In this document: piece by piece, positions 19,585 through 25,795 of the stretch
How positions within the stretch are numbered: the first letter of the stretch is position 1
Layout: every line of letters begins with the position of its first letter
Translations under genes and position numbers: made by a program
Notes under the pieces: generated by a model
What the model was told of the DNA's origin: nothing
The model's database searches: none
What the model saw: only the letters and a program-made list of their open reading frames with translations
From: Patescibacteria group bacterium
GTDB taxonomy: Bacteria > Patescibacteriota > Patescibacteriia > GCA-002772895
Direction: 5' to 3'
Assembly (NCBI GenBank): GCA_018895765.1
Contig: JAHINX010000019.1
Coordinates: 1 to 45,410, forward strand
Length of the DNA: 45,410 nucleotides

Positions 19585-21024
19585 TTATTTGCTTCCCGCC
19601 GTAGATACTGTTTCATCCGAAAGGTCAACGCGGATATATTTAGCAAGTAGGGGATGGACGCGCTCTATTTCGCGCCAGCATTCTTGTGCGATTCTGCGAT
19701 AAGAAATATGTCCTTTTTTTCCGGAGCGGAGAGGTATAAAGTGATGAAGTTCTCGTAGATTCCATGTAAAAAGAGTTCGTTTGCGGAAGGCAAGGGGGAT
19801 TATATATTGGGCTTCGTCTGGGAATTGTTTATAAATTTTGTGATACGCCTCTTCTGCAACTGCCATTGCGTTTTTAAATCCCGTTTCATATCCAGCTTCA
19901 ATAATATCGTCTGGTATTGAAAATCCATGTTCTATTGTAACCTTCTGATTAGTTTGTGTTGCCATTCTGTGGCGCTGGACATCACGGAAGGCCCCATAAT
20001 CCATTAGAGTATCAAAGGTGTAATAAATATGCTCCAGTTCACGCAAAGGCCGATCAAACGGATTTCTACGCTTTAATGCTTCATCTATAATGGCTGTTTT
20101 TATTGCGTTTGGTATTTTTTCTATTTTTGATTTTATTTGTGAATAAGGTAAGTTGCTATTTCTATATAAAAGAGCTGAGACCAACTTGTTTTCTGCGTCT
20201 TTGTCATAATCAACGAGCTTTACTGGAAGATTACTCCCAGCTGGTTCATTATTAAAGAGCCATGAGCTAAGATGCGCCAACTCTTTATCGGTTTCCATTA
20301 AATAGGGGTTTTTGTCTGCGAATTTTTCTAAAGTTGGGGTTACTTTGCTGGCTACTTCTTTTAATTCTGTGCCGATTTCTTGCATTTCTTCTAAAGGATG
20401 TGACATGAGTTTTGTAATAGCCCAATCAAGATTTCGCGCGTTTATTGTCATCCCTAGATTAGTTTGGGTTGATGCTGGAAGAAGATATCGTACATTATCG
20501 CAGACCTTTGCTTTACAAATAGAATTATACATTTTTTCGCCCATGTCTGGTTTTTTTGGATCTTTTTTCTTTATAAATTCCATCATTGGCTCGGAAAGAG
20601 CCTCATAAACTTGAAACAAATAATCCCCAGCGCGCTCGTAAATATCTTTCAGGTCGGACTTCATAATCCGTTCAGGTTTTAGATATCTATTTTTATCAAA
20701 AACTTGATAGCGGGTAGATTTTTCAGTGTATGATGCCAGTCTATTATCTTCTACAACTTTTGTTGCTAAAATTGATATATTCTCTAAGGCGATAGAAATA
20801 ATTGCGTGTTCAGCAACAGATGAATGTCCATAACCAACAACCCATTTTTCATGAAATTCGCTTGATTTTTCTTCTGTTAATTCTTTTGCTATCTCATCAA
20901 ATGACTCGGGTGATCGTGAGCATTTAGCAAAACAGACGGCCTTTACTTCTGGCGTTAATCCTTCCAGAGTATAGATCCTTCGTTTATTTTTTGTATCCTC
21001 TTGTGGGTAGGTGTCGTTTGACAT
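19585..21024 (-). CDS. thyX: FAD-dependent thymidylate synthase, long tandem-domain form
   Basis: Two ThyX-like halves. The N half has GHSSVAEH...DNRLASYTEKSTRY and the C half has FRDVQRHRMATQ. Confidence 0.75.
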   Translation of the reverse strand: MSNDTYPQEDTKNKRRIYTLEGLTPEVKAVCFAKCSRSPESFDEIAKELTEEKSSEFHEKWVVGYGHSSVAEHAIISIALENISILATKVVEDNRLASYTEKSTRYQVFDKNRYLKPERIMKSDLKDIYERAGDYLFQVYEALSEPMMEFIKKKDPKKPDMGEKMYNSICKAKVCDNVRYLLPASTQTNLGMTINARNLDWAITKLMSHPLEEMQEIGTELKEVASKVTPTLEKFADKNPYLMETDKELAHLSSWLFNNEPAGSNLPVKLVDYDKDAENKLVSALLYRNSNLPYSQIKSKIEKIPNAIKTAIIDEALKRRNPFDRPLRELEHIYYTFDTLMDYGAFRDVQRHRMATQTNQKVTIEHGFSIPDDIIEAGYETGFKNAMAVAEEAYHKIYKQFPDEAQYIIPLAFRKRTLFTWNLRELHHFIPLRSGKKGHISYRRIAQECWREIERVHPLLAKYIRVDLSDETVSTAGSK

Positions 21025-21107
21025 AGGTTTTTTAAGGTTATAGTATTAGTTAAGAGTTCTTTTAATTAGTTTATAACAAAGCGTGGGAGCGCGCAAGGAG
21101 GACGAAA

Positions 21108-21857
21108 ATGCTTGAAAATGAAGCGAGAAAAGATTTTTTACAATTCATTGCAGAGCTTCCGGAAGATGAAGACGGCTTTGAGCTTGGCCTGCATTATGGT
21201 TTTTTCCAAAAATTGGCAAATGTATTAAAAGCAGAGTATAGGTGGCAAAAATATGCGATGAAAAACCGTAGCGTCCAGGGAGGCGGAGAAGGACAGGAAT
21301 TTTCCGAAACGCTAATGGACCATATGCTTCATAAGTTTATGATTGCCTCGGAAATGGTTGCGACCGAAATGGGTTATGGCGGACACAAGAGTTTGGAGAT
21401 TAGGCGGCGCCATCTCTATCTGTCTTTTTTTATGTATGGCTTGGGCATGGCTACTTATGGCGAAGTATCTTTAATGGATAAGGATACAAGGGATTTGTCG
21501 CAGGAAGATGACACTTTTCTGAATCTGTTAAAAAACTATCCGGAAGTGGTACACGGACCATTTAGAAGAGCATACGAACTTTCGCAAGAAAGAGATAGAG
21601 CGATTTTGGCCGGCGAAAGCTTGGGCAGTATTTCTGTAACCGGAAGATTTTTGTGGGCGATAGTTGTGGCAACATTTTTGGATAAATCGCTTTATGAGGT
21701 AAGGCATGGTCAGCTTGCTTTTGCAAACACGTTTCATAATGTTTGGGAGGACATTCAACCCTTAATGAGAGAATTTTATTCTTTTAGAATTAAGGTTTTG
21801 CCGCTTTTGCCGGAAATTATGGAATATATGGAAAGATATCCACGCTGGACTGAATAA
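21108..21857 (+). CDS. HD-superfamily-like protein (YfbR/HDDC2-like fold) lacking the HD dyad
   Basis: RW..., ETLMDHMLH, then FFMYGLGMATYGEVS where HD..E...GD is expected. The C-terminal ~55 aa are paralogous to the next gene. SD AAGGAGG lies upstream. Confidence 0.5.
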   Translation: MLENEARKDFLQFIAELPEDEDGFELGLHYGFFQKLANVLKAEYRWQKYAMKNRSVQGGGEGQEFSETLMDHMLHKFMIASEMVATEMGYGGHKSLEIRRRHLYLSFFMYGLGMATYGEVSLMDKDTRDLSQEDDTFLNLLKNYPEVVHGPFRRAYELSQERDRAILAGESLGSISVTGRFLWAIVVATFLDKSLYEVRHGQLAFANTFHNVWEDIQPLMREFYSFRIKVLPLLPEIMEYMERYPRWTE

Positions 21858-21882
21858 TCCTCATTTTTATGGGGATTTTTTG
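21856..21882 (+). terminator. Rho-independent terminator
   Basis: AATCCTCA ttttta TGGGGATT followed by TTTTT. Confidence 0.65.
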
Positions 21883-21887
21883 TAAAG

Positions 21888-21960
21888 AGATTGCCACGGA
21901 TTTATAGCGGATTTACGCGGATATGATAATTACGGATAAGAGAGGACAAATGCGGATATT
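21888..21960. repeat. AGATTGCCACG box followed by five same-orientation CGGAT words
   Basis: CGGAT at 21897, 21908, 21918, 21933 and 21953. TGTGGATAA follows at 21967-21975. Confidence 0.8.
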
Positions 21961-22162
21961 ATTAGTTGTGGATAACTTTTGGATTTACATTAATATAAAA
22001 GAGGTTTAAACTTTAAAGTAAGCTCTTTGAAAAAGGCAGAATAGAGTTCGTTTTTCGTCCAAAGGACTATGAAGGACATTCTTCTTTTATTAACACAGGT
22101 ATTGCCTCTTTTTGTAAGAGGCAGTGCCATTCGAAGCTTTTTGCGATAGCAAAGAGCGAAGA

Positions 22163-23254
22163 ATGGAGGAAAAAATGGCTCAAGAAGAAAGAGTATTAAG
22201 AACGCATTTGGATATAATAAGAGAATTGGTTGAAGTATTATGTTCGGAAAAAGGCATTAATGCAAGAGAGTTGGATGATGGTAAACTGGAATATAAAATA
22301 GCTGACGAACGCGTTTTGAGCTTTCTAATGCGGAAATATAAAATGCCACGGTATGGAGCAGAAGGTATTTTAAGTCACTTGTTTATGAAGGGGCTGATTG
22401 AATTTCATCAAAGTGAACACAGCTCTGTATGGTATTGGATAGTGATCAAAGTTAGCGGACGCGACCTTGCAAAAAATCAAAAAATAGCAGAAGCGCCACC
22501 TGCCAGGCAAGCGCTTAGAAATTATCTGTTTTCTTTAAGGGATGCCGGAAGAAAGATAGACTTAGCAGAGTTTACTGGATTTTGCCGATTATTTACTAAT
22601 TCATTGGCAGAAGAAAAAAGATATGAGCTTTTGGCCGGTTTGAGCAGAAAATATAATTTTTCAGAGTCAGGCGAGGCTTTGCCGGAAGCGGTTTTAACTC
22701 ACACGGCATTTGATACGCCTTTTTTGGGAAATATGATGCTCGCGCTTGAAGAGGATGAGGAAACGGCTTGTTGTAATTTTTTGGATGGTAGATTGCTACA
22801 ACTTGCCTTTTTTGTTCATGATTTTGCCGAAGGAATCAGTTTGAAGGGCGATGTTGATTTTGTAAATAAGAATAGCGCAATTGAAAAAGAAGAAGAGGAG
22901 GCCTTAGAGTTATTACTTTCGGTAGTTTCGCCTGCGTTGGCAAAAAGAATCAGAAAAGCTACTCTTGTCGTGGAAGAGGTTCCGCCGATTTGGCGGAGAG
23001 GGGAGACGCCCGAAAAAGCAAGCTGGAACGGGCAGTTCTTTAATGCTGTAGAAAATGCCGGTTATATTTCTCGCGCGCTTTATGAGGTGCAGGCGGGAAA
23101 TATTCCTTTTGGCAATGTATTTTTTGACCAGCAGGAAAAAGTTGAATATTATGTGAAAAAGTTTGAATCCTTTAGAGCTTTTATTGAACCGTATTTGGAG
23201 CTTATGCAAGAATTCCGAGAAAAATATAAAAATGCGCCATGGCGTAAACAATAA
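22163..23254 (+). CDS. Winged-helix-like N-terminal region fused to an HD-like (YfbR/HDDC2-type) domain
   Basis: FFVHDFAEGISLKGDVDF...EKEEEEALELL matches the HD-x-AE-x-x-x-GD...EEK signature of 5'-deoxynucleotidases. Start is ATG 22163 or ATG 22175 (GGAGGA lies between them). GTG 22124 is unlikely. Confidence 0.55.
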   Translation: MEEKMAQEERVLRTHLDIIRELVEVLCSEKGINARELDDGKLEYKIADERVLSFLMRKYKMPRYGAEGILSHLFMKGLIEFHQSEHSSVWYWIVIKVSGRDLAKNQKIAEAPPARQALRNYLFSLRDAGRKIDLAEFTGFCRLFTNSLAEEKRYELLAGLSRKYNFSESGEALPEAVLTHTAFDTPFLGNMMLALEEDEETACCNFLDGRLLQLAFFVHDFAEGISLKGDVDFVNKNSAIEKEEEEALELLLSVVSPALAKRIRKATLVVEEVPPIWRRGETPEKASWNGQFFNAVENAGYISRALYEVQAGNIPFGNVFFDQQEKVEYYVKKFESFRAFIEPYLELMQEFREKYKNAPWRKQ

Positions 23255-23280
23255 AAATCCTGACAAATTGTCAGGATTTT
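23255..23280 (+). terminator. Terminator hairpin AAATCCTGACAA a TTGTCAGGATTT
   Basis: 12-bp perfect arms immediately after stop 23252-23254, followed by a T-run. Confidence 0.7.
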
Positions 23281-23295
23281 ATAATAGCGGTTTTT

Positions 23296-23446
23296 TTGCT
23301 GTCATTGCGAGGAGGCCTGCCCCGTAGTGAGCTTGCTCTACTACTAGGGTACTCCGACGTGGCAATCTAATTGCAAAAAGACGAGATTGCCACGCCCCGC
23401 TCCAGTTTTTGGGGAACTGGGGCGGGACTCGCAATGACGGAGGGTT
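23296..23446. mobile_element. MITE-like palindromic element (family A) flanked by a 28-bp direct duplication
   Basis: Terminal IR is GTCATTGCGAG (23301-23311) and CTCGCAATGAC (23428-23438). Inner IR is CGTGGCAATCT and AGATTGCCACG. Direct repeats at 23268-23295 and 23447-23474 match at 27 of 28 positions. Confidence 0.75.
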
Positions 23447-23457
23447 TTGTCAGGATT

Positions 23458-24507
23458 TTATAATAGTGGTTTTTGGAGAGAAGATAATTTTGTGATAATT
23501 AATGTTTTGAATTGGGAAATATTTTCATTATCCCAAAAAAACCAGTTTTCCGCCGCTTTTGGCAAAAATCTGTCTGAGGAAAAATTTTTATGCAAATAAT
23601 GTTCTTTTAATGGCCATGTTAGATCTGCTGATGCGAGGCGGAGCATGTCAGGTATAATTTCCAATTCTTTTTGTGTCAGGGGATTGATGTTGTGATATGT
23701 GCTCAAAAACATTTCTGCTTTTTCAAAGCTTAATGGAGTATGAAAATTCCATGTCCAATCTGTTTTGCAGGCAAAAACCATTGCGCAGATAACTTCCCAT
23801 ATTCTTGGCTGATGTTTTGCCAGCTCCCAATCAACAACAGCAGAGACCTCTCCTTTTTCATTGAAAAGCATATTGGCGGCATGAAAATCACCGTGAATAA
23901 GAAGAGCCGGAAGGGCGTCTGTCTCAATTTTTGGCGACAGATGCAACTCATTGATTTTATGAGCCAAGATACTATTTATTTCTTTGTCAAAATCATCAAA
24001 AAATTGTTTTTTTGATAAATGTTTTATTACGTCAGAGTAAAGATGATCCAGCGCCCCGCGACTCCAAATTGGCACCACCGGCTCCAGATCAAGAGGAATG
24101 TTTTTTGCTAAATAATGGTAGCGGGCTAAAGTTTTCGCGATATTTATAAGTTCTTCGTCGGTTACACTATTTGTTGCTACTCTTGTGTGACCGGAGATAT
24201 AGTCAAAAAAAGTGAAGCGTTTGTTGTCTATTTCTGTAAGTGTATCGTCCTCTTTGTTTTTTATAAGTCCAGGGACGGGAAATTTTTGTTCTTTTAAATA
24301 TGCCAACAATTGATGTTCCCGTGAAATGCGCTCATTGGTTTCGCGCAAATATTTTTTCAAAAAAAATTTTCCCTTGCTTGTTTCAATAATGTAATTATCG
24401 TTTGTAAATCCGCCTTCCGCCCGGCTCAGGTTGGAAAATGTTCCCAATTCGTATTGAGATAAAAGAGAGGGGATGTCCTGTACCATTTGTCGCATTTTTT
24501 CTTGCAT
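23458..24507 (-). CDS. Phosphotransferase of the APH/choline-kinase (protein-kinase-like) family
   Basis: LIHGDFHAANMLF catalytic loop, VVDWELA metal-binding motif and an N-lobe FFLKKY. Confidence 0.75.
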   Translation of the reverse strand: MQEKMRQMVQDIPSLLSQYELGTFSNLSRAEGGFTNDNYIIETSKGKFFLKKYLRETNERISREHQLLAYLKEQKFPVPGLIKNKEDDTLTEIDNKRFTFFDYISGHTRVATNSVTDEELINIAKTLARYHYLAKNIPLDLEPVVPIWSRGALDHLYSDVIKHLSKKQFFDDFDKEINSILAHKINELHLSPKIETDALPALLIHGDFHAANMLFNEKGEVSAVVDWELAKHQPRIWEVICAMVFACKTDWTWNFHTPLSFEKAEMFLSTYHNINPLTQKELEIIPDMLRLASADLTWPLKEHYLHKNFSSDRFLPKAAENWFFWDNENISQFKTLIITKLSSLQKPLL

Positions 24508-24517
24508 ACATTTTTAT

Positions 24518-24600
24518 ACCCTCCTTTGGAAAAGGAGGGTTGGGGAGGATTTATGAATATATAATTAAATCCCCCTTACTCCCCCTTCTCCGAAGGGGGA
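24518..24600. repeat. Triple-hairpin palindromic element (family B, copy 2)
   Basis: H1 is ACCCTCCTT tggaa AAGGAGGGT. H2 is GGGGAGGATTTA..TAAATCCCCC. H3 is TCCCCCTT ctccg AAGGGGGA. H3 supplies the last 8 codons of the 24576 CDS. Confidence 0.85.
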
Positions 24601-25175
24601 AAAGTATTTATAAATCCGTCAATCTTTTTTTTGAATTCTTCCATCGAGCCGGTGTTTACAATTGTACAGTCAGCCATGGCGATTGGGCCGGCTTTATCCA
24701 GGTTTTCTATTTCCGCAAAGTCGCGCGCCCTCGCTTCTTCTTTGCTAAAATTTCTGTTCCGCAAATCAATATCATCTTTATCTGAAAATCTTTTTGAAAT
24801 CCGTTCATAGCGGAGTTCGGGCGGAGCATAGATAGCAACTATGGTTAGGCGCTCGTTATAATAATCTTTTAAAATTTTATATTCATCCCAGCTGTAAAGT
24901 CCGTCGGCAACAAGATTTTTATCTTCCAAAACTTTATCAAATTTTGGGATATTTAAAGTTGCATAAGCGCCCATTCCATGCTCTTTGCGTATTGCTTCGC
25001 GGACTTCTCTTTCGTTTTTTTCATTGGGTTCTAATCCGCGTTCTTTTATGATATCTAGAGTAATTTGTCCAAAACGGACAAAACCCCATCCGTGCGCAAC
25101 AAACGCGTCTGCTAAAATACTTTTGCCGGAACCGCACATCCCGACGATGGCAATTATTTTATTTTTATTATTCAT
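24576..25175 (-). CDS. P-loop nucleoside/nucleotide kinase-like protein (adenylate-kinase / dephospho-CoA-kinase-like)
   Basis: Walker A IVGMCGSGKS near the N-terminus, 199 aa. Substrate not inferable. Confidence 0.55.
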   Translation of the reverse strand: MNNKNKIIAIVGMCGSGKSILADAFVAHGWGFVRFGQITLDIIKERGLEPNEKNEREVREAIRKEHGMGAYATLNIPKFDKVLEDKNLVADGLYSWDEYKILKDYYNERLTIVAIYAPPELRYERISKRFSDKDDIDLRNRNFSKEEARARDFAEIENLDKAGPIAMADCTIVNTGSMEEFKKKIDGFINTFPPSEKGE

Positions 25176-25219: not shown

Positions 25220-25795
25220 TTAATATATTTGCCCGAAATTATTGGGCGGTTCTTTTTTCTGCTCTATTGGTACATTCTCTTCCAATATAACTGCTTTCTC
25301 GTCTATTTTTTCTATATTTTTTTCAAACAATCTTTTTATATTATTATTCCATTCTTGATTGGGCTCGTAAAAGACAACCTCAAGTCCGGCTGTTTTTAAA
25401 TAATCTATTGCCTGTGAGTTGCGGTAGATTGTTTCAATAACGATTCTTTTAATTCCCGCGGCAACAATATATTTACAGCAATGGATACAGGGCGAATAAA
25501 GCGCGTAAAGAGTAGCACCTTCGGTAGTTTGACCGGCAACTGTGGCGGCTTGCAAAATCGCGTTATGTTCGGCATGGATTGTGCGGACGCAGTGCCCTTC
25601 TTCCATAAGATGTCCGGCTTCGCTGTCGCAATGTGGAAGCCCGGGTGGAGAACCATTATATCCTGTGGAAATAATTCTTTTATTTTTAACCAAAACCGCG
25701 CCAGCGCGAAGTCTGTCGCAAGTGCTTCTGGTTGCGACAATGCGGGCGATTGCCATAAAGTAGTCGTCCCATGAAGGACGGATAAAATTTTGCAT
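25220..25795 (-). CDS. comEB: Deoxycytidylate (dCMP) deaminase
   Basis: HAEHNAI and PCIHCCK zinc-binding motifs, with a ~40-aa C-terminal tail. Confidence 0.88.
   Translation of the reverse strand: MQNFIRPSWDDYFMAIARIVATRSTCDRLRAGAVLVKNKRIISTGYNGSPPGLPHCDSEAGHLMEEGHCVRTIHAEHNAILQAATVAGQTTEGATLYALYSPCIHCCKYIVAAGIKRIVIETIYRNSQAIDYLKTAGLEVVFYEPNQEWNNNIKRLFEKNIEKIDEKAVILEENVPIEQKKEPPNNFGQIY

What the first reader, a model, noticed from the sequence alone, without database searches (positions are those of the whole stretch)
21108..23254. Adjacent paralogous HD-like proteins with incomplete, partly complementary metal-ligand sets, one fused to a winged-helix domain
Both ORFs end in a paralogous segment, SLYEVRHGQLAFANTF...FYSFRIKVLPLLPEIMEY versus ALYEVQAGNIPFGNVF...FESFRAFIEPYLELMQEF. 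Both align by eye to YfbR/HDDC2-type 5'-deoxynucleotidases, whose ligand pattern is H...HD...D.

The first ORF keeps the first His (ETLMDHMLH), but the HD dyad position reads YG and the GD position reads GE. The second ORF keeps HD..E...GD (FFVHDFAEGISLKGD), but it appears to have N at the first-His position and N at the last-Asp position, and it carries a wHTH-like N-terminal half.

The pair lies in the middle of the tmk/thyX/dCMP-deaminase cluster. Possible explanations are a heteromeric enzyme, or non-catalytic dNMP-sensing proteins, with the fusion acting as a nucleotide-responsive transcription factor.
Basis: inference. Interest (0 to 1): 0.6.

Follow-up and report, generated by a model that had tools for sequence, protein, structure and literature searches.

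The report
Active nucleotidase beside its dead paralog
In the thymidylate gene cluster of an uncultivated Parcubacteria bacterium, a seemingly complete YfbR-type nucleotide phosphatase fused to a small winged-helix domain sits beside an old duplicate that has lost its metal site but is still kept by selection; the two do not carry complementary half-sites as first proposed.

Summary
The two ORFs are real. ORF1 is 21108-21857 (249 aa). ORF2 is 359 aa from ATG 22175, not from the GTG at 22124. They are paralogs along all of ORF1 (BLASTP 1e-15; clade profiles E 8e-54).

Both belong to the YfbR/HDDC2-type HD phosphohydrolase superfamily. The joint profile hits YfbR 2PAQ at 2.6e-16, and confident AF2 models match YfbR/HDDC2 with TM about 0.7.

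ORF2 has the first His (H176), H215-D216, E219 and D226. At YfbR's D137 column it has Glu (E293), which is near-invariant across about 50 related clusters. The "N" is the next, variable column. There is therefore no complementarity: ORF2 looks like a complete enzyme and ORF1 like a pseudoenzyme.

ORF1's clade is monophyletic, shows omega about 0.11, and keeps YfbR's deoxyribose-recognition residues (R45, W46, E119).

ORF2's N-terminal domain of about 100 aa is winged-helix-like. In relatives it is a separate gene upstream or downstream of the HD gene, which is a Rosetta-stone-type link.

The most likely function is a deoxynucleotidase modulated by a non-catalytic partner. This is inferred, not shown. 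Interest is moderate.

The parts
21018..21046 (+). Promoter-like site (TTGACA-17-TAGTAT) upstream of ORF1, in the 83-nt spacer shared with the divergent thyX gene
   Evidence: Consensus scan. It is a pattern match only.
21108..21857 (+). ORF1: 249-aa catalytically degenerate paralog of a YfbR-like HD phosphohydrolase (pseudoenzyme)
   Evidence: ORF. BLASTP to ORF2 gives 1e-15 and hhalign gives 8e-54. The AF2 model has pLDDT 93.3. Foldseek matches YfbR and HDDC2 with TM 0.66-0.74 and probability about 1. dN/dS is 0.106 against the L001 ortholog. The clade is monophyletic with SH-aLRT 100.
21240..21245 (+). ORF1 R45-W46, equivalent to YfbR R18-W19 (deoxyribose recognition and exclusion of ribose); invariant in the dead clade
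   Evidence: The residue roles come from PMC8177086.
21321..21323 (+). ORF1 H72, equivalent to YfbR H33 (first metal ligand); the only ligand retained
21435..21449 (+). ORF1 Y110-G111 at the HD position and M114 at the catalytic Glu position (HDxxE has become YGLGM)
21459..21464 (+). ORF1 G118-E119 at the GD position (YfbR D77); the position stays acidic throughout the clade
21663..21665 (+). ORF1 V186 in the column of the fourth metal ligand (YfbR D137, family Glu)
21856..21877 (+). Terminator-like hairpin plus T-run directly after ORF1. An equivalent hairpin follows ORF1 orthologs in L001, L010, L012, L013, L014 and L015
21967..21975 (-). TTATCCACA (a perfect DnaA-box 9-mer inside the conserved 13-mer AAAGTTATCCACA) in the ORF1-ORF2 spacer
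   Evidence: Its function is unknown. It is one of 9 copies in the window.
21984..22012 (+). Promoter-like site (TTTACA-17-TAAACT) upstream of ORF2, conserved in L001
22175..23254 (+). ORF2: 359 aa, made of a winged-helix-like N-domain, a linker and an intact YfbR-like HD phosphohydrolase module. The real start is ATG 22175 with GGAGG upstream
   Evidence: The AF2 model has pLDDT 90.4 and pTM 0.79. The reading frame across the fusion junction is reproduced without indels in contigs of two independent metagenome runs.
22175..22462 (+). ORF2 residues 1-96: small winged-helix-like domain (alpha-beta-beta-alpha-alpha-beta-beta). In relatives it is a separate gene, upstream of the HD gene in L001, L016 and L019 and downstream in L021. 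It is fused in L010 and L011
   Evidence: Weak PDB hits are to MarR, PadR, GntR, BlaI and MukE. BFVD local hits to small phage regulators and replisome organizers have probability 0.98-1.0. No Pfam or PDB sequence hit was found.
22502..23251 (+). ORF2 residues 110-359: HD module, paralogous to all of ORF1
   Evidence: Foldseek hits OxsA at 3.4e-4, HDDC2, and YfbR with TM 0.76. The intact-clade profile hits 1XX7 at 4e-6, 3MZO at 4e-5 and 2PAQ at 3e-3.
22700..22702 (+). ORF2 H176, the first metal ligand (equivalent to YfbR H33).
22817..22852 (+). ORF2 H215-D216 (metal ligands), E219 (catalytic Glu) and G225-D226 (equivalent to YfbR D77)
23051..23053 (+). ORF2 E293, in the column of YfbR D137. 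The Glu is near-invariant in the whole subfamily.

Best explanation
The locus encodes a three-module unit built from one ancestral gene pair, inside the deoxypyrimidine (Tmk, ThyX, dCMP deaminase) cluster of a groundwater Parcubacteria (CPR) genome.

(1) ORF2's C-terminal 250 aa is a divergent member of the YfbR-like HD phosphohydrolase family and looks catalytically competent. It has the full conserved set of its subfamily: R149-Y150, H176, H215-D216, E219, D226, K232 and E293, with Glu replacing the usual last Asp family-wide. It most likely hydrolyses 2'-deoxynucleoside 5'-monophosphates. That would oppose the neighbouring kinases and help set deoxypyrimidine pools.

(2) ORF2's N-terminal domain of about 100 aa is a small winged-helix-like domain. 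It is the enzyme's constant partner and is fused, or encoded just upstream or downstream, depending on the lineage.

(3) ORF1 is an ancient tandem duplicate of the enzyme. Its fold is predicted to be kept, and it retains the deoxyribose-recognition residues (R45, W46, E119) and the first His. It has replaced the HD dyad, the catalytic Glu and the fourth ligand with Tyr-Gly, Met and Val. It therefore cannot bind the catalytic metal in the canonical way and is a pseudoenzyme maintained by purifying selection.

The mechanism I consider most likely is that ORF1 binds a deoxyribose-containing ligand (dN or dNMP) without turning it over and modulates the active paralog. The likeliest route is replacement of one subunit of the YfbR-type dimer, giving an enzyme/dead-paralog heterodimer.

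Shown here: paralogy, family and predicted fold, ligand status, selection, synteny, and fusion/fission.

Inferred: catalytic competence of the Glu variant, the substrate, ligand binding by ORF1, and the heterodimer.

Sub-confidences: family and fold 0.9; ORF2 catalytically competent 0.7; ORF1 non-catalytic and functional 0.85; ORF1 acting through ORF2 0.4.
For: Paralogy:
- BLASTP gives 1e-15.
- hhalign gives E 8.3e-54 over 241 columns.

Family:
- 44 of 56 relatives found by the exhaustive profile search hit PF12917 YfbR-like, and 40 hit HD_3.
- The family profile hits YfbR 2PAQ at 2.6e-16, Lin2634 at 5.9e-16, OxsA at 1.4e-13 and HDDC2 at 1e-10.
- The intact clade alone hits 1XX7, 3MZO and 2PAQ.

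Fold:
- AF2 pLDDT is 90.4 for ORF2 and 93.3 for ORF1.
- Foldseek matches YfbR and HDDC2 with TM 0.66-0.76.

Ligands:
- The column table over 56 sequences is.
- Residue-by-residue mapping to YfbR H33, H68, D69, E72, D77 and D137 comes from the alignment, with roles taken from PMC8177086.
- The family Glu aligns with YfbR D137 and with the Lin2634 ISD Asp.

ORF1 is maintained:
- omega is 0.106 against 0.096 for thyX and 0.149 for the ORF2 HD module.
- The dead clade is monophyletic (SH-aLRT 100) and has 7 representatives at the 50% clustering level.
- The ligand replacements are the same across members only 40% identical.

Co-occurrence:
- In every lineage where the contig extends far enough (window, L001-L006, L008, L010, L011, and L012 at least to the start of the winged-helix gene), the dead copy is followed by the winged-helix domain plus the intact copy.
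- Intact copies exist without a dead copy (L016, L020, L021).

Winged-helix partner:
- Searches show the fused, upstream and downstream arrangements.

Shared high long-range divergence:
- ORF1 is 40% identical, the ORF2 HD module 45% and the N-domain about 22%, against 71-78% for the neighbours.

Metabolic context:
- Neighbours are Tmk, ThyX, dCMP deaminase, dUTPase, TK and dNK.
- A YfbR-type enzyme feeding the dTTP pathway is documented in T. brucei (PMC5098729).
Against: - No biochemical data exist for any member of this subfamily.
- A Glu in place of the last Asp ligand is untested, although it is conserved.
- ORF2 itself scores below Pfam's gathering threshold (HD_3 13.3 bits against 22.5).
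- The dead-clade profile alone finds no solved HD structure, so its assignment rests on paralogy and on a predicted fold.
- ORF1 and ORF2 are separate transcription units. A terminator-like hairpin follows ORF1 in all lineages and ORF2 has its own promoter-like site. That is not what is usually seen for obligate heteromers.
- No multimer prediction or co-evolution test could be run, so the heterodimer is pure inference.
- In ORF1 the metal and phosphate site is filled with hydrophobic residues (Y, M/I/V, V). That may abolish nucleotide binding altogether.
- The family is tiny. It was absent from the pattern scans of the GTDB representative genomes, so the comparative sample is small.
Confidence: 0.5

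Rival explanations
1. ORF1 works on its own, independently of ORF2, as a deoxynucleoside or dNMP binding or buffering protein. It could also be an accessory of the divergently transcribed ThyX, for example a sensor or chaperone for dUMP or dTMP.
For: ORF1 has its own promoter-like site and a terminator-like hairpin, which is conserved across lineages. It always lies head-to-head with thyX. It occupies the ancestral position that the single intact HD gene holds in L021. It retains the equivalents of R18, W19 and D77.
Against: It has never been seen without the winged-helix/intact-HD unit downstream where that could be checked. Its long-range divergence rate tracks that of ORF2 and not that of ThyX. 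No interaction data exist for either view.
Confidence: 0.25
2. The winged-helix/HD fusion (ORF2) is primarily a nucleotide-responsive DNA-binding regulator of the BirA type, an enzyme that is also a repressor, and it controls the deoxypyrimidine cluster. ORF1 would act as a co-sensor.
For: The N-domain has winged-helix topology. Its closest structural matches are DNA-binding proteins: MarR, PadR, GntR and BlaI in the PDB, and phage regulators and replisome organizers in BFVD. The fusion and fission pattern shows the domain works together with the HD module. A conserved spacer motif lies upstream of ORF2.
Against: No sequence-level membership in any DNA-binding family was found. The pI of the domain ranges from 5.4 to 10.0 between lineages, and the window's putative recognition helix is poor in basic residues. 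The domain diverges extremely fast (about 18-25% identity between window and L001, whose HD modules are about 80% identical), which is unusual for an operator-binding domain. The conserved spacer 9-mer is a dispersed motif with 9 copies in the window, several of them inside genes. No palindromic operator was seen.
Confidence: 0.2
3. One reading: ORF1 and ORF2 each have an incomplete ligand set and together assemble a composite active site as a heteromeric enzyme.
For: The two proteins are adjacent paralogs of a dimeric enzyme family.
Against: ORF2 has every conserved ligand of its subfamily: H176, H215, D216 and E293. ORF1 contributes nothing that ORF2 lacks. In YfbR the metal site is described as formed by four residues of one chain, H33, H68, D69 and D137 (PMC8177086). 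Intact single-copy relatives exist without a dead partner.
Confidence: 0.03
4. ORF1 has acquired a new catalytic or binding function that does not use the canonical HD metal site. The function could use residues specific to its clade, such as the invariant K76, W183, N211 and D215 and the C-terminal PRWEE tail.
For: The dead clade has its own set of 43 invariant columns, several of which are absent from the intact clade. Purifying selection is strong.
Against: No known chemistry of the HD fold works without the metal site (general knowledge; PMC8177086 describes all characterized members as metalloproteins). There is no positive evidence for this idea.
Confidence: 0.07
5. ORF1 is a decaying gene remnant with no function.
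For: It has lost the catalytic residues.
Against: The reading frame is intact in all lineages. omega is 0.106, similar to thyX. The AF2 model is confident, with pLDDT 93. The gene has persisted across lineages only 40% identical.
Confidence: 0.03

Closest known systems
E. coli YfbR (5'-deoxynucleotidase, PDB 2PAQ/2PAU; Pfam PF12917/PF13023) and its relatives human HDDC2, yeast YGK1 and the T. brucei HD 5'-nucleotidase
   Same: The predicted all-helical HD fold is shared (TM 0.66-0.76). The motif order R-W ... H ... HD..E ... GD ... K ... acidic ligand is the same. The setting is deoxynucleotide metabolism. The trypanosome enzyme also feeds the thymidylate pathway.
   Different: Both window proteins are about 50 aa longer than YfbR. 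Neither reaches the Pfam gathering score directly. The fourth ligand is Glu instead of Asp throughout this subfamily. ORF2 has Tyr for W19 and carries a winged-helix domain. ORF1 lacks three of the four ligands and the catalytic Glu. No activity has been measured.
Lin2634 (PDB 3MZO) and OxsA (PDB 5TK6), which are solved PF12917-type HD phosphohydrolases
   Same: They are the best sequence-profile and fold matches. They align along nearly the whole module, including the C-terminal 'E..GN..F' helix region.
   Different: In the alignments printed here, Lin2634 shows Asp at the last-ligand column where this subfamily has Glu. OxsA acts on oxetanocin tri-, di- and monophosphates with variable metal nuclearity. 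Neither is shown or described here with a dead paralog or a winged-helix partner.
Enzyme/pseudoenzyme paralog pairs in which a dead paralog heterodimerizes with and regulates the active one, for example the trypanosomatid AdoMetDC and deoxyhypusine synthase 'prozymes' (from my own knowledge)
   Same: A duplicated enzyme gene in which one copy has lost catalytic residues, remains under purifying selection, and co-occurs with the active copy.
   Different: Here the interaction and any regulatory effect are hypothetical. The enzyme family is different. This is an analogy of logic, not homology.
BirA-type bifunctional proteins, with an N-terminal winged helix fused to an enzyme that senses its own substrate (from my own knowledge)
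   Same: The architecture is a small N-terminal winged-helix-like domain followed by a small-molecule enzyme.
   Different: The window's domain has no sequence similarity to BirA or to any Pfam wHTH family. DNA binding has not been shown. In relatives the domain is a free-standing protein.

Membership tests
YfbR-like / HD_3 5'-deoxynucleotidase family (PF12917, PF13023) | Direct match to the family HMM above the curated gathering score | tested here: not met
   ORF2 scores HD_3 E=0.078, 13.3 bits against a cut-off of 22.5. ORF1 has no hit. The L001 ortholog P0007 scores E=0.03. NCBIfam gives no hit. Membership is reached only transitively: 44 of 56 relatives hit PF12917, and the family profile hits YfbR at 2.6e-16.
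YfbR-like / HD_3 5'-deoxynucleotidase family (PF12917, PF13023) | All-alpha HD fold superposable on solved members | tested here: met
   AF2 pLDDT is 90.4 and 93.3. For ORF2, Foldseek finds OxsA at E 3.4e-4 and YfbR 2paq_A with TM 0.76. For ORF1 it finds YfbR and HDDC2 with TM 0.66-0.74 and probability 0.99-1.0. These are predicted structures, not solved ones.
YfbR-like / HD_3 5'-deoxynucleotidase family (PF12917, PF13023) | Metal ligand set H...HD...D (YfbR H33, H68, D69, D137), tested on ORF2 | tested here: inconclusive
   H176, H215 and D216 are present. The fourth position is E293, a Glu instead of Asp, and that Glu is near-invariant in the subfamily. The change is chemically conservative, but whether Glu ligates the metal is untested.
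YfbR-like / HD_3 5'-deoxynucleotidase family (PF12917, PF13023) | Metal ligand set H...HD...D, tested on ORF1 | tested here: not met
   Only H72 is kept. The HD dyad is Y110-G111 and the fourth ligand is V186. The same losses occur in all 8 dead-clade sequences examined, except that P0014 keeps the His of HD.
YfbR-like / HD_3 5'-deoxynucleotidase family (PF12917, PF13023) | Catalytic Glu of the HDxxE motif (YfbR E72) | tested here: met
   Met for ORF2 (E219). Not met for ORF1 (M114; I or V in relatives).
YfbR-like / HD_3 5'-deoxynucleotidase family (PF12917, PF13023) | Deoxyribose-specificity residues R18, W19 and D77 | tested here: met
   ORF1 has R45, W46 and E119 (D in other clade members). 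ORF2 has R149, Y150 and D226, with W or F at the aromatic position in close relatives.
YfbR-like / HD_3 5'-deoxynucleotidase family (PF12917, PF13023) | Metal-dependent dNMP phosphohydrolase activity and a dimeric state | not testable with these tools
   This needs purified protein. No multimer prediction was available.
Winged-helix (wHTH) DNA-binding domains | alpha1-beta1-alpha2-alpha3-beta2-beta3 topology | tested here: met
   DSSP of the AF2 model gives H2-24, E30-32, E37-43, H44-55, H59-71, E75-79 and E87-94, with pLDDT 73-92.
Winged-helix (wHTH) DNA-binding domains | Significant structural or sequence match to a known wHTH family | tested here: inconclusive
   PDB hits to HsmR/MarR, PadR, GntR and BlaI have E 0.2-0.6. 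BFVD local hits to a 93-aa phage regulatory protein (TM 0.59, rmsd 3.0 A, probability 1.00) and to replisome organizers all have E>0.1. No Pfam hit and no PDB sequence-profile hit were found.
Winged-helix (wHTH) DNA-binding domains | DNA binding | not testable with these tools
   Indirect evidence only. The pI is 6.9 in the window, 5.4 in L001, 10.0 in L011 and 9.7 in L016. No palindromic operator was found.
Pseudoenzyme (catalytically dead paralog retained by selection) | Homology to an enzyme, loss of essential catalytic residues, and purifying selection with phylogenetic persistence | tested here: met
   Homology is shown. The lost residues are ones whose substitution inactivates YfbR. omega is 0.106. 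The clade is monophyletic and spans sequences down to 38-44% identity.

The most novel reading that the evidence does not exclude
The dead paralog, the winged-helix module and the active HD enzyme form one co-evolving regulatory device for deoxypyrimidine pools in genome-reduced CPR bacteria. In this reading ORF1 is an allosteric deoxyribose or dNMP sensor subunit that switches the nucleotidase on or off by forming a heterodimer. The winged-helix module either tethers the complex to DNA, for feedback control of the thyX/tmk cluster, or docks it onto another protein. This would be the first prozyme-like regulation in the YfbR/HDDC2 family, and a new kind of dNTP-pool control in organisms whose dNTP-pool control has not been described.
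Probability: 0.15. Interest if true: 0.65.

Novelty: new variant of a known kind. Interest (0 to 1): 0.4.

Why it matters
YfbR/HDDC2-type HD nucleotidases occur in all three domains of life, but their physiological regulation is poorly understood. I found no catalytically dead paralog or dedicated winged-helix partner described for this family in the literature searched.

CPR bacteria have been described as having limited, highly variable biosynthetic repertoires (abstract of PMC7304191), and from general knowledge they depend largely on salvaged nucleotides, so the way they balance deoxynucleotide pools matters for their biology.

This locus offers a compact and testable case of three small soluble proteins or domains. 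It can show how an enzyme duplicate is repurposed after losing its metal site while keeping the sugar-recognition residues.

It also shows that the subfamily uses Glu as the putative fourth metal ligand. That corrects a naive reading of these proteins as incomplete.

If only the ordinary reading holds, an active nucleotidase next to a pseudoenzyme of unclear role, the finding is a modest annotation gain for about 50 clusters of hypothetical proteins.

Tried and rejected
Searches that found nothing:
- Single-sequence Pfam, NCBIfam, PHROGs and PDB searches of ORF1 and ORF2 gave nothing significant. The 5-sequence profile against the PDB also failed. Only the 56-sequence profile worked.
- The word-indexed 5.8-billion-protein search found only near-identical relatives.
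- Only DNA metagenome runs hold the locus, so there is no transcription evidence.

Ideas considered and rejected:
- Composite active site from complementary ligand sets. Rejected because ORF2 is complete.
- ORF2 fusion as an assembly or frameshift artefact. Rejected because the junction is reproduced without indels in two independent runs and fusions also occur in L010 and L011.
- Anti-phage defence module. No PADLOC hit for ORF1 or ORF2, and the cluster is syntenic with housekeeping genes across lineages.
- The spacer DnaA-box-like motif as a specific operator of the winged-helix domain. It is a dispersed motif with 9 copies in the window, several inside coding sequence.
- P0002, an apparent fusion of a POR domain with the ORF2 C-terminus on an 1.8-kb low-coverage contig, is most likely an assembly chimera and was not used.

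Full report
**1. What is there**

The window has two same-strand ORFs at the stated place: 21108-21857 (249 aa, ORF1) and 22124-23254 (376 aa from a GTG). The biologically likely start of the second is ATG 22175, which has GGAGG 7 nt upstream. That gives 359 aa, and it is the form held in the protein database. I use this 359-aa numbering for ORF2.

Neighbours on the opposite strand are:
- GatB, a membrane protein, thymidylate kinase and a 479-aa ThyX on the left;
- an APH-family kinase, an AAA_17/18 nucleotide-kinase-like protein, dCMP deaminase, and then L1, L11 and NusG on the right.

The closest named relative is a hypothetical protein of a 'Parcubacteria group bacterium CG10_big_fil_rev...' MAG. 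The runs that hold the locus are groundwater metagenomes.

**2. Paralogy**

BLASTP aligns the whole of ORF1 with the last 250 residues of ORF2 (24% identity, E=1e-15). After relatives were collected, a profile-profile comparison of the two clades gave probability 100% and E=8.3e-54 over 241 columns.

**3. Family and fold**

Single-sequence searches were nearly blind. ORF2 matched HD_3 at E=0.078, below threshold, and ORF1 matched nothing. The PDB gave nothing for either.

An exhaustive profile search of 1.84 billion cluster representatives returned 57 proteins, 22 of them at E<=1e-10. When 56 family sequences were scanned individually, 44 hit PF12917 (YfbR-like 5'-deoxynucleotidase) and 40 hit HD_3.

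The profile of that alignment hits these solved structures:
- YfbR 2PAQ, 2.6e-16
- Lin2634 3MZO, 5.9e-16
- OxsA, 1.4e-13
- HDDC2, 1e-10
- DatZ, 9e-4

The intact clade alone still reaches 1XX7, 3MZO and 2PAQ. The degenerate clade alone reaches nothing.

AlphaFold2 models built on these alignments are confident: ORF2 has pLDDT 90.4 and pTM 0.79, and ORF1 has pLDDT 93.3 and pTM 0.91. Foldseek places both on YfbR, HDDC2 and OxsA, with TM 0.66-0.76 normalised to the target and probability about 1.

**4. The ligand question**

According to the HD-superfamily review PMC8177086, YfbR binds its Co2+ through H33, H68, D69 and D137. It recognises deoxyribose through R18, W19 and D77, and substitution of any of these inactivates it.

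Counting through the HMMER alignment to 2PAQ (the chain is offset by +2), the family's conserved columns correspond as follows:

| Family column | YfbR residue |
|---|---|
| RW | R18, W19 |
| H | H33 |
| HD | H68, D69 |
| E | E72 |
| GD | D77 |
| E in 'A-V-E-x-x-G-Y' | D137 |

The alignments to Lin2634 show the same E-to-D pairing at its 'ISD'.

The table of these columns for all 56 sequences shows that the Glu is present in essentially every member. The next column is variable (R, I, K, Q, N and others).

ORF2 has R149-Y150, H176, H215-D216, E219, G225-D226, K232 and E293-N294. ORF2 carries the complete conserved set of its subfamily, in which the fourth ligand is Glu.

ORF1 has R45-W46, H72, Y110-G111, M114, G118-E119, K125 and V186. 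That means one ligand of four is kept, the catalytic Glu is lost, and the full deoxyribose-recognition trio is kept. There is no complementarity between the two proteins.

**5. The degenerate copy is old, monophyletic and selected**

The seven representatives with degenerate ligands form one clade (SH-aLRT 100). It is nested among intact ORF2-like proteins inside a 13-member subclade. This points to a single duplication and a single loss of the metal site.

The same replacements (Y or H, G or S, a hydrophobic residue at the Glu position, Val at the fourth ligand) recur in members only 38-44% identical to ORF1.

Against the ortholog in L001, ORF1 has dN/dS of 0.106. That compares with 0.096 for thyX, 0.149 for ORF2's HD module and 0.03 for the APH kinase. 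ORF1 is therefore a maintained pseudoenzyme, not a decaying gene.

**6. Comparative genomics**

- L001-L006, L008 and L009 (82% identity in ORF1) are fully syntenic. ORF2's counterpart there is two genes, a 109-aa protein and a 254-aa HD protein. The ATG of the second overlaps the stop of the first and has its own Shine-Dalgarno sequence.
- L010 and L011 (40% identity in ORF1) have thyX on the opposite strand, then the dead 249-aa gene, then a fused winged-helix/HD protein of 354-383 aa. These are followed on the opposite strand by APH, dUTPase, the AAA kinase and dCMP deaminase.
- The other dead-clade members (P0008, P0011, P0012, P0014) also lie head-to-head with thyX. Their contigs end soon after. 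In L012 the next gene begins with the small-domain sequence.
- Intact copies without a dead copy exist in three settings:
  - L016 and L017: thyX, then a 90-aa small protein, then the HD gene, then APH and dUTPase.
  - L021: the same GatB to NusG synteny, with a single intact HD gene in ORF1's position followed by an 83-aa small protein.
  - L020: the HD gene lies between thymidine kinase and a deoxynucleoside kinase.

The small protein is recognisably the same family throughout (and by eye for L021). Its upstream, downstream and fused arrangements amount to Rosetta-stone-type evidence that it acts together with the HD enzyme.

A simple history is HD followed by wH, then HD-wH-HD' by duplication. 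After that the first copy lost its metal site (the window's lineage) or was lost entirely (L016).

The fusion in the window is not an artefact. A contig of run X1 covers ORF2 with no difference. A contig of an independent study (X5) spans the junction at 22424-22586 with one substitution and no indel.

**7. The N-terminal domain**

The model gives alpha-beta-beta-alpha-alpha-beta-beta for residues 1-96.
- The PDB tail of hits consists of winged-helix proteins (MarR/HsmR, PadR, GntR, BlaI, MukE), all with E>0.1.
- BFVD gives domain-sized local matches to a phage regulatory protein (TM 0.59, rmsd 3.0 A, probability 1.00), to small SSV proteins and to replisome organizers.
- It matches no Pfam family and no PDB sequence profile.
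- It has only two free-standing relatives in 5.8 billion proteins.
- Its pI ranges from 5.4 to 10.0.
- Between the window and L001 it is about 18-25% identical depending on the alignment (pN 0.49), although the attached HD modules are about 80% identical.

I therefore accept 'winged-helix-like' at fold level and regard DNA binding as open.

**8. Rates**

Between the window and the L010 lineage the housekeeping neighbours are 71-78% identical. ORF1 is 40%, ORF2's HD module 45% and the N-domain about 22%. The three modules share a high long-range rate, while short-range omega is low. This is compatible with co-evolving partners but does not prove it.

**9. Mechanism**

I consider ORF2 a functional metal-dependent phosphohydrolase, most probably a 5'-deoxynucleotidase. 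The reasons are the full motif set, the retained D77 equivalent, the aromatic residue after the Arg, and the neighbourhood of TK, dNK, Tmk, ThyX, dUTPase and dCMP deaminase.

There is a documented precedent. A YfbR-type HD nucleotidase most active on dCMP, dUMP and dTMP supplies the thymidylate route in T. brucei (PMC5098729).

ORF1 cannot bind the metal canonically. Because it keeps precisely the residues that in YfbR contact the deoxyribose, the most economical reading is a non-catalytic binder of deoxynucleosides or deoxynucleotides. YfbR is a dimer, and the dead copy is only found together with the intact one. I therefore favour a heterodimer in which ORF1 modulates ORF2, a prozyme-like logic.

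The separate promoter and terminator of ORF1 would allow the ratio of the two proteins to be tuned, but they equally fit a stand-alone role. None of this is shown. The experiments are listed under next steps.

**10. Verdict**

Its most intriguing element, complementary half-sites, is refuted.

What remains is a new variant within a known family: an intact Glu-variant YfbR-like enzyme with a dedicated winged-helix partner, and a conserved dead paralog. It is restricted, as far as could be seen, to a small group of Parcubacteria. Interest is moderate.

Noticed in passing
window 21967-21975 and eight other sites (2524, 12626, 15428, 26243, 26972, 33965, 38523, 41783); L012 and L015 spacers: The perfect DnaA-box 9-mer TTATCCACA occurs 9 times in 45 kb, all on the minus strand, against 0.24 expected by chance. 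Several copies lie inside coding sequence as ...VDK... codons. The extended 13-mer AAAGTTATCCACA is conserved in the spacer between the dead HD gene and the winged-helix gene in four lineages, but its orientation is flipped in L012 and L015.
   Followed up: partly
window 23458-24507 (-): The APH-family kinase is convergent with ORF2. It is the most constrained gene of the cluster (omega 0.03) and is present wherever the winged-helix gene precedes the HD gene (L001, L010, L016, L019). In L020 the intact HD gene is instead flanked by thymidine kinase and a dNK-family kinase. The APH-type kinase could therefore be a non-orthologous deoxynucleoside kinase. Its best NCBIfam hits are homoserine kinase models far below their cut-offs.
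   Followed up: partly
window 24576-25175 (-) and 25220-25795 (-): The AAA_17/18 kinase-like protein matches the kinase part of the PADLOC anti-phage 'dCTPase' model (E=2e-10) and NCBIfam antiphage_deaminase (2e-5). It sits directly next to a dCMP deaminase, so the pair looks like a split version of the kinase-deaminase architecture. The pair is syntenic across all lineages next to the ribosomal protein genes, which argues for a housekeeping role.
   Followed up: no
window about 23255-23457 and 24508-24575; L001 11191-11418; L010 4155-4595: A dUTPase gene lies between the HD/APH unit (directly after the HD and small-protein genes in L021, which lacks APH) and the AAA kinase in L010, L019 and L021, and next to APH in L016. 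It is absent at this position in the window. In L001 a DUF559 (Vsr-like) gene occupies the place. The window has a duplicated 28-nt repeat (23268-23295 and 23447-23474) flanking the APH stop.
   Followed up: no
window 21885-21965: The ORF1-ORF2 spacer of the window carries about 110 extra nucleotides with CGGAT-type word repeats that the otherwise collinear L001 spacer lacks. It is therefore an insertion and not a conserved regulatory element of the pair.
   Followed up: partly
window 22119-22177: Contigs of three independent metagenome runs match only this segment of about 40-60 nt, just upstream of and into the ORF2 start codon, and then continue into unrelated sequence. This suggests a short dispersed repeat or a conserved 5' leader shared with other loci. 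It is not repeated inside the window.
   Followed up: no
L007 827-1543: P0002 joins a pyruvate-ferredoxin-oxidoreductase-like N-terminus to the last 150 or so residues of an ORF2 ortholog on a 1.8-kb contig with coverage 2.7. It is probably an assembly chimera.
   Followed up: no
window 19585-21024 (-): ThyX here is 479 aa, about twice the length of the 191-position Thy1 model, and it matches the Thy1 model in two stretches. It is highly conserved across lineages (76-78% identity).
   Followed up: no
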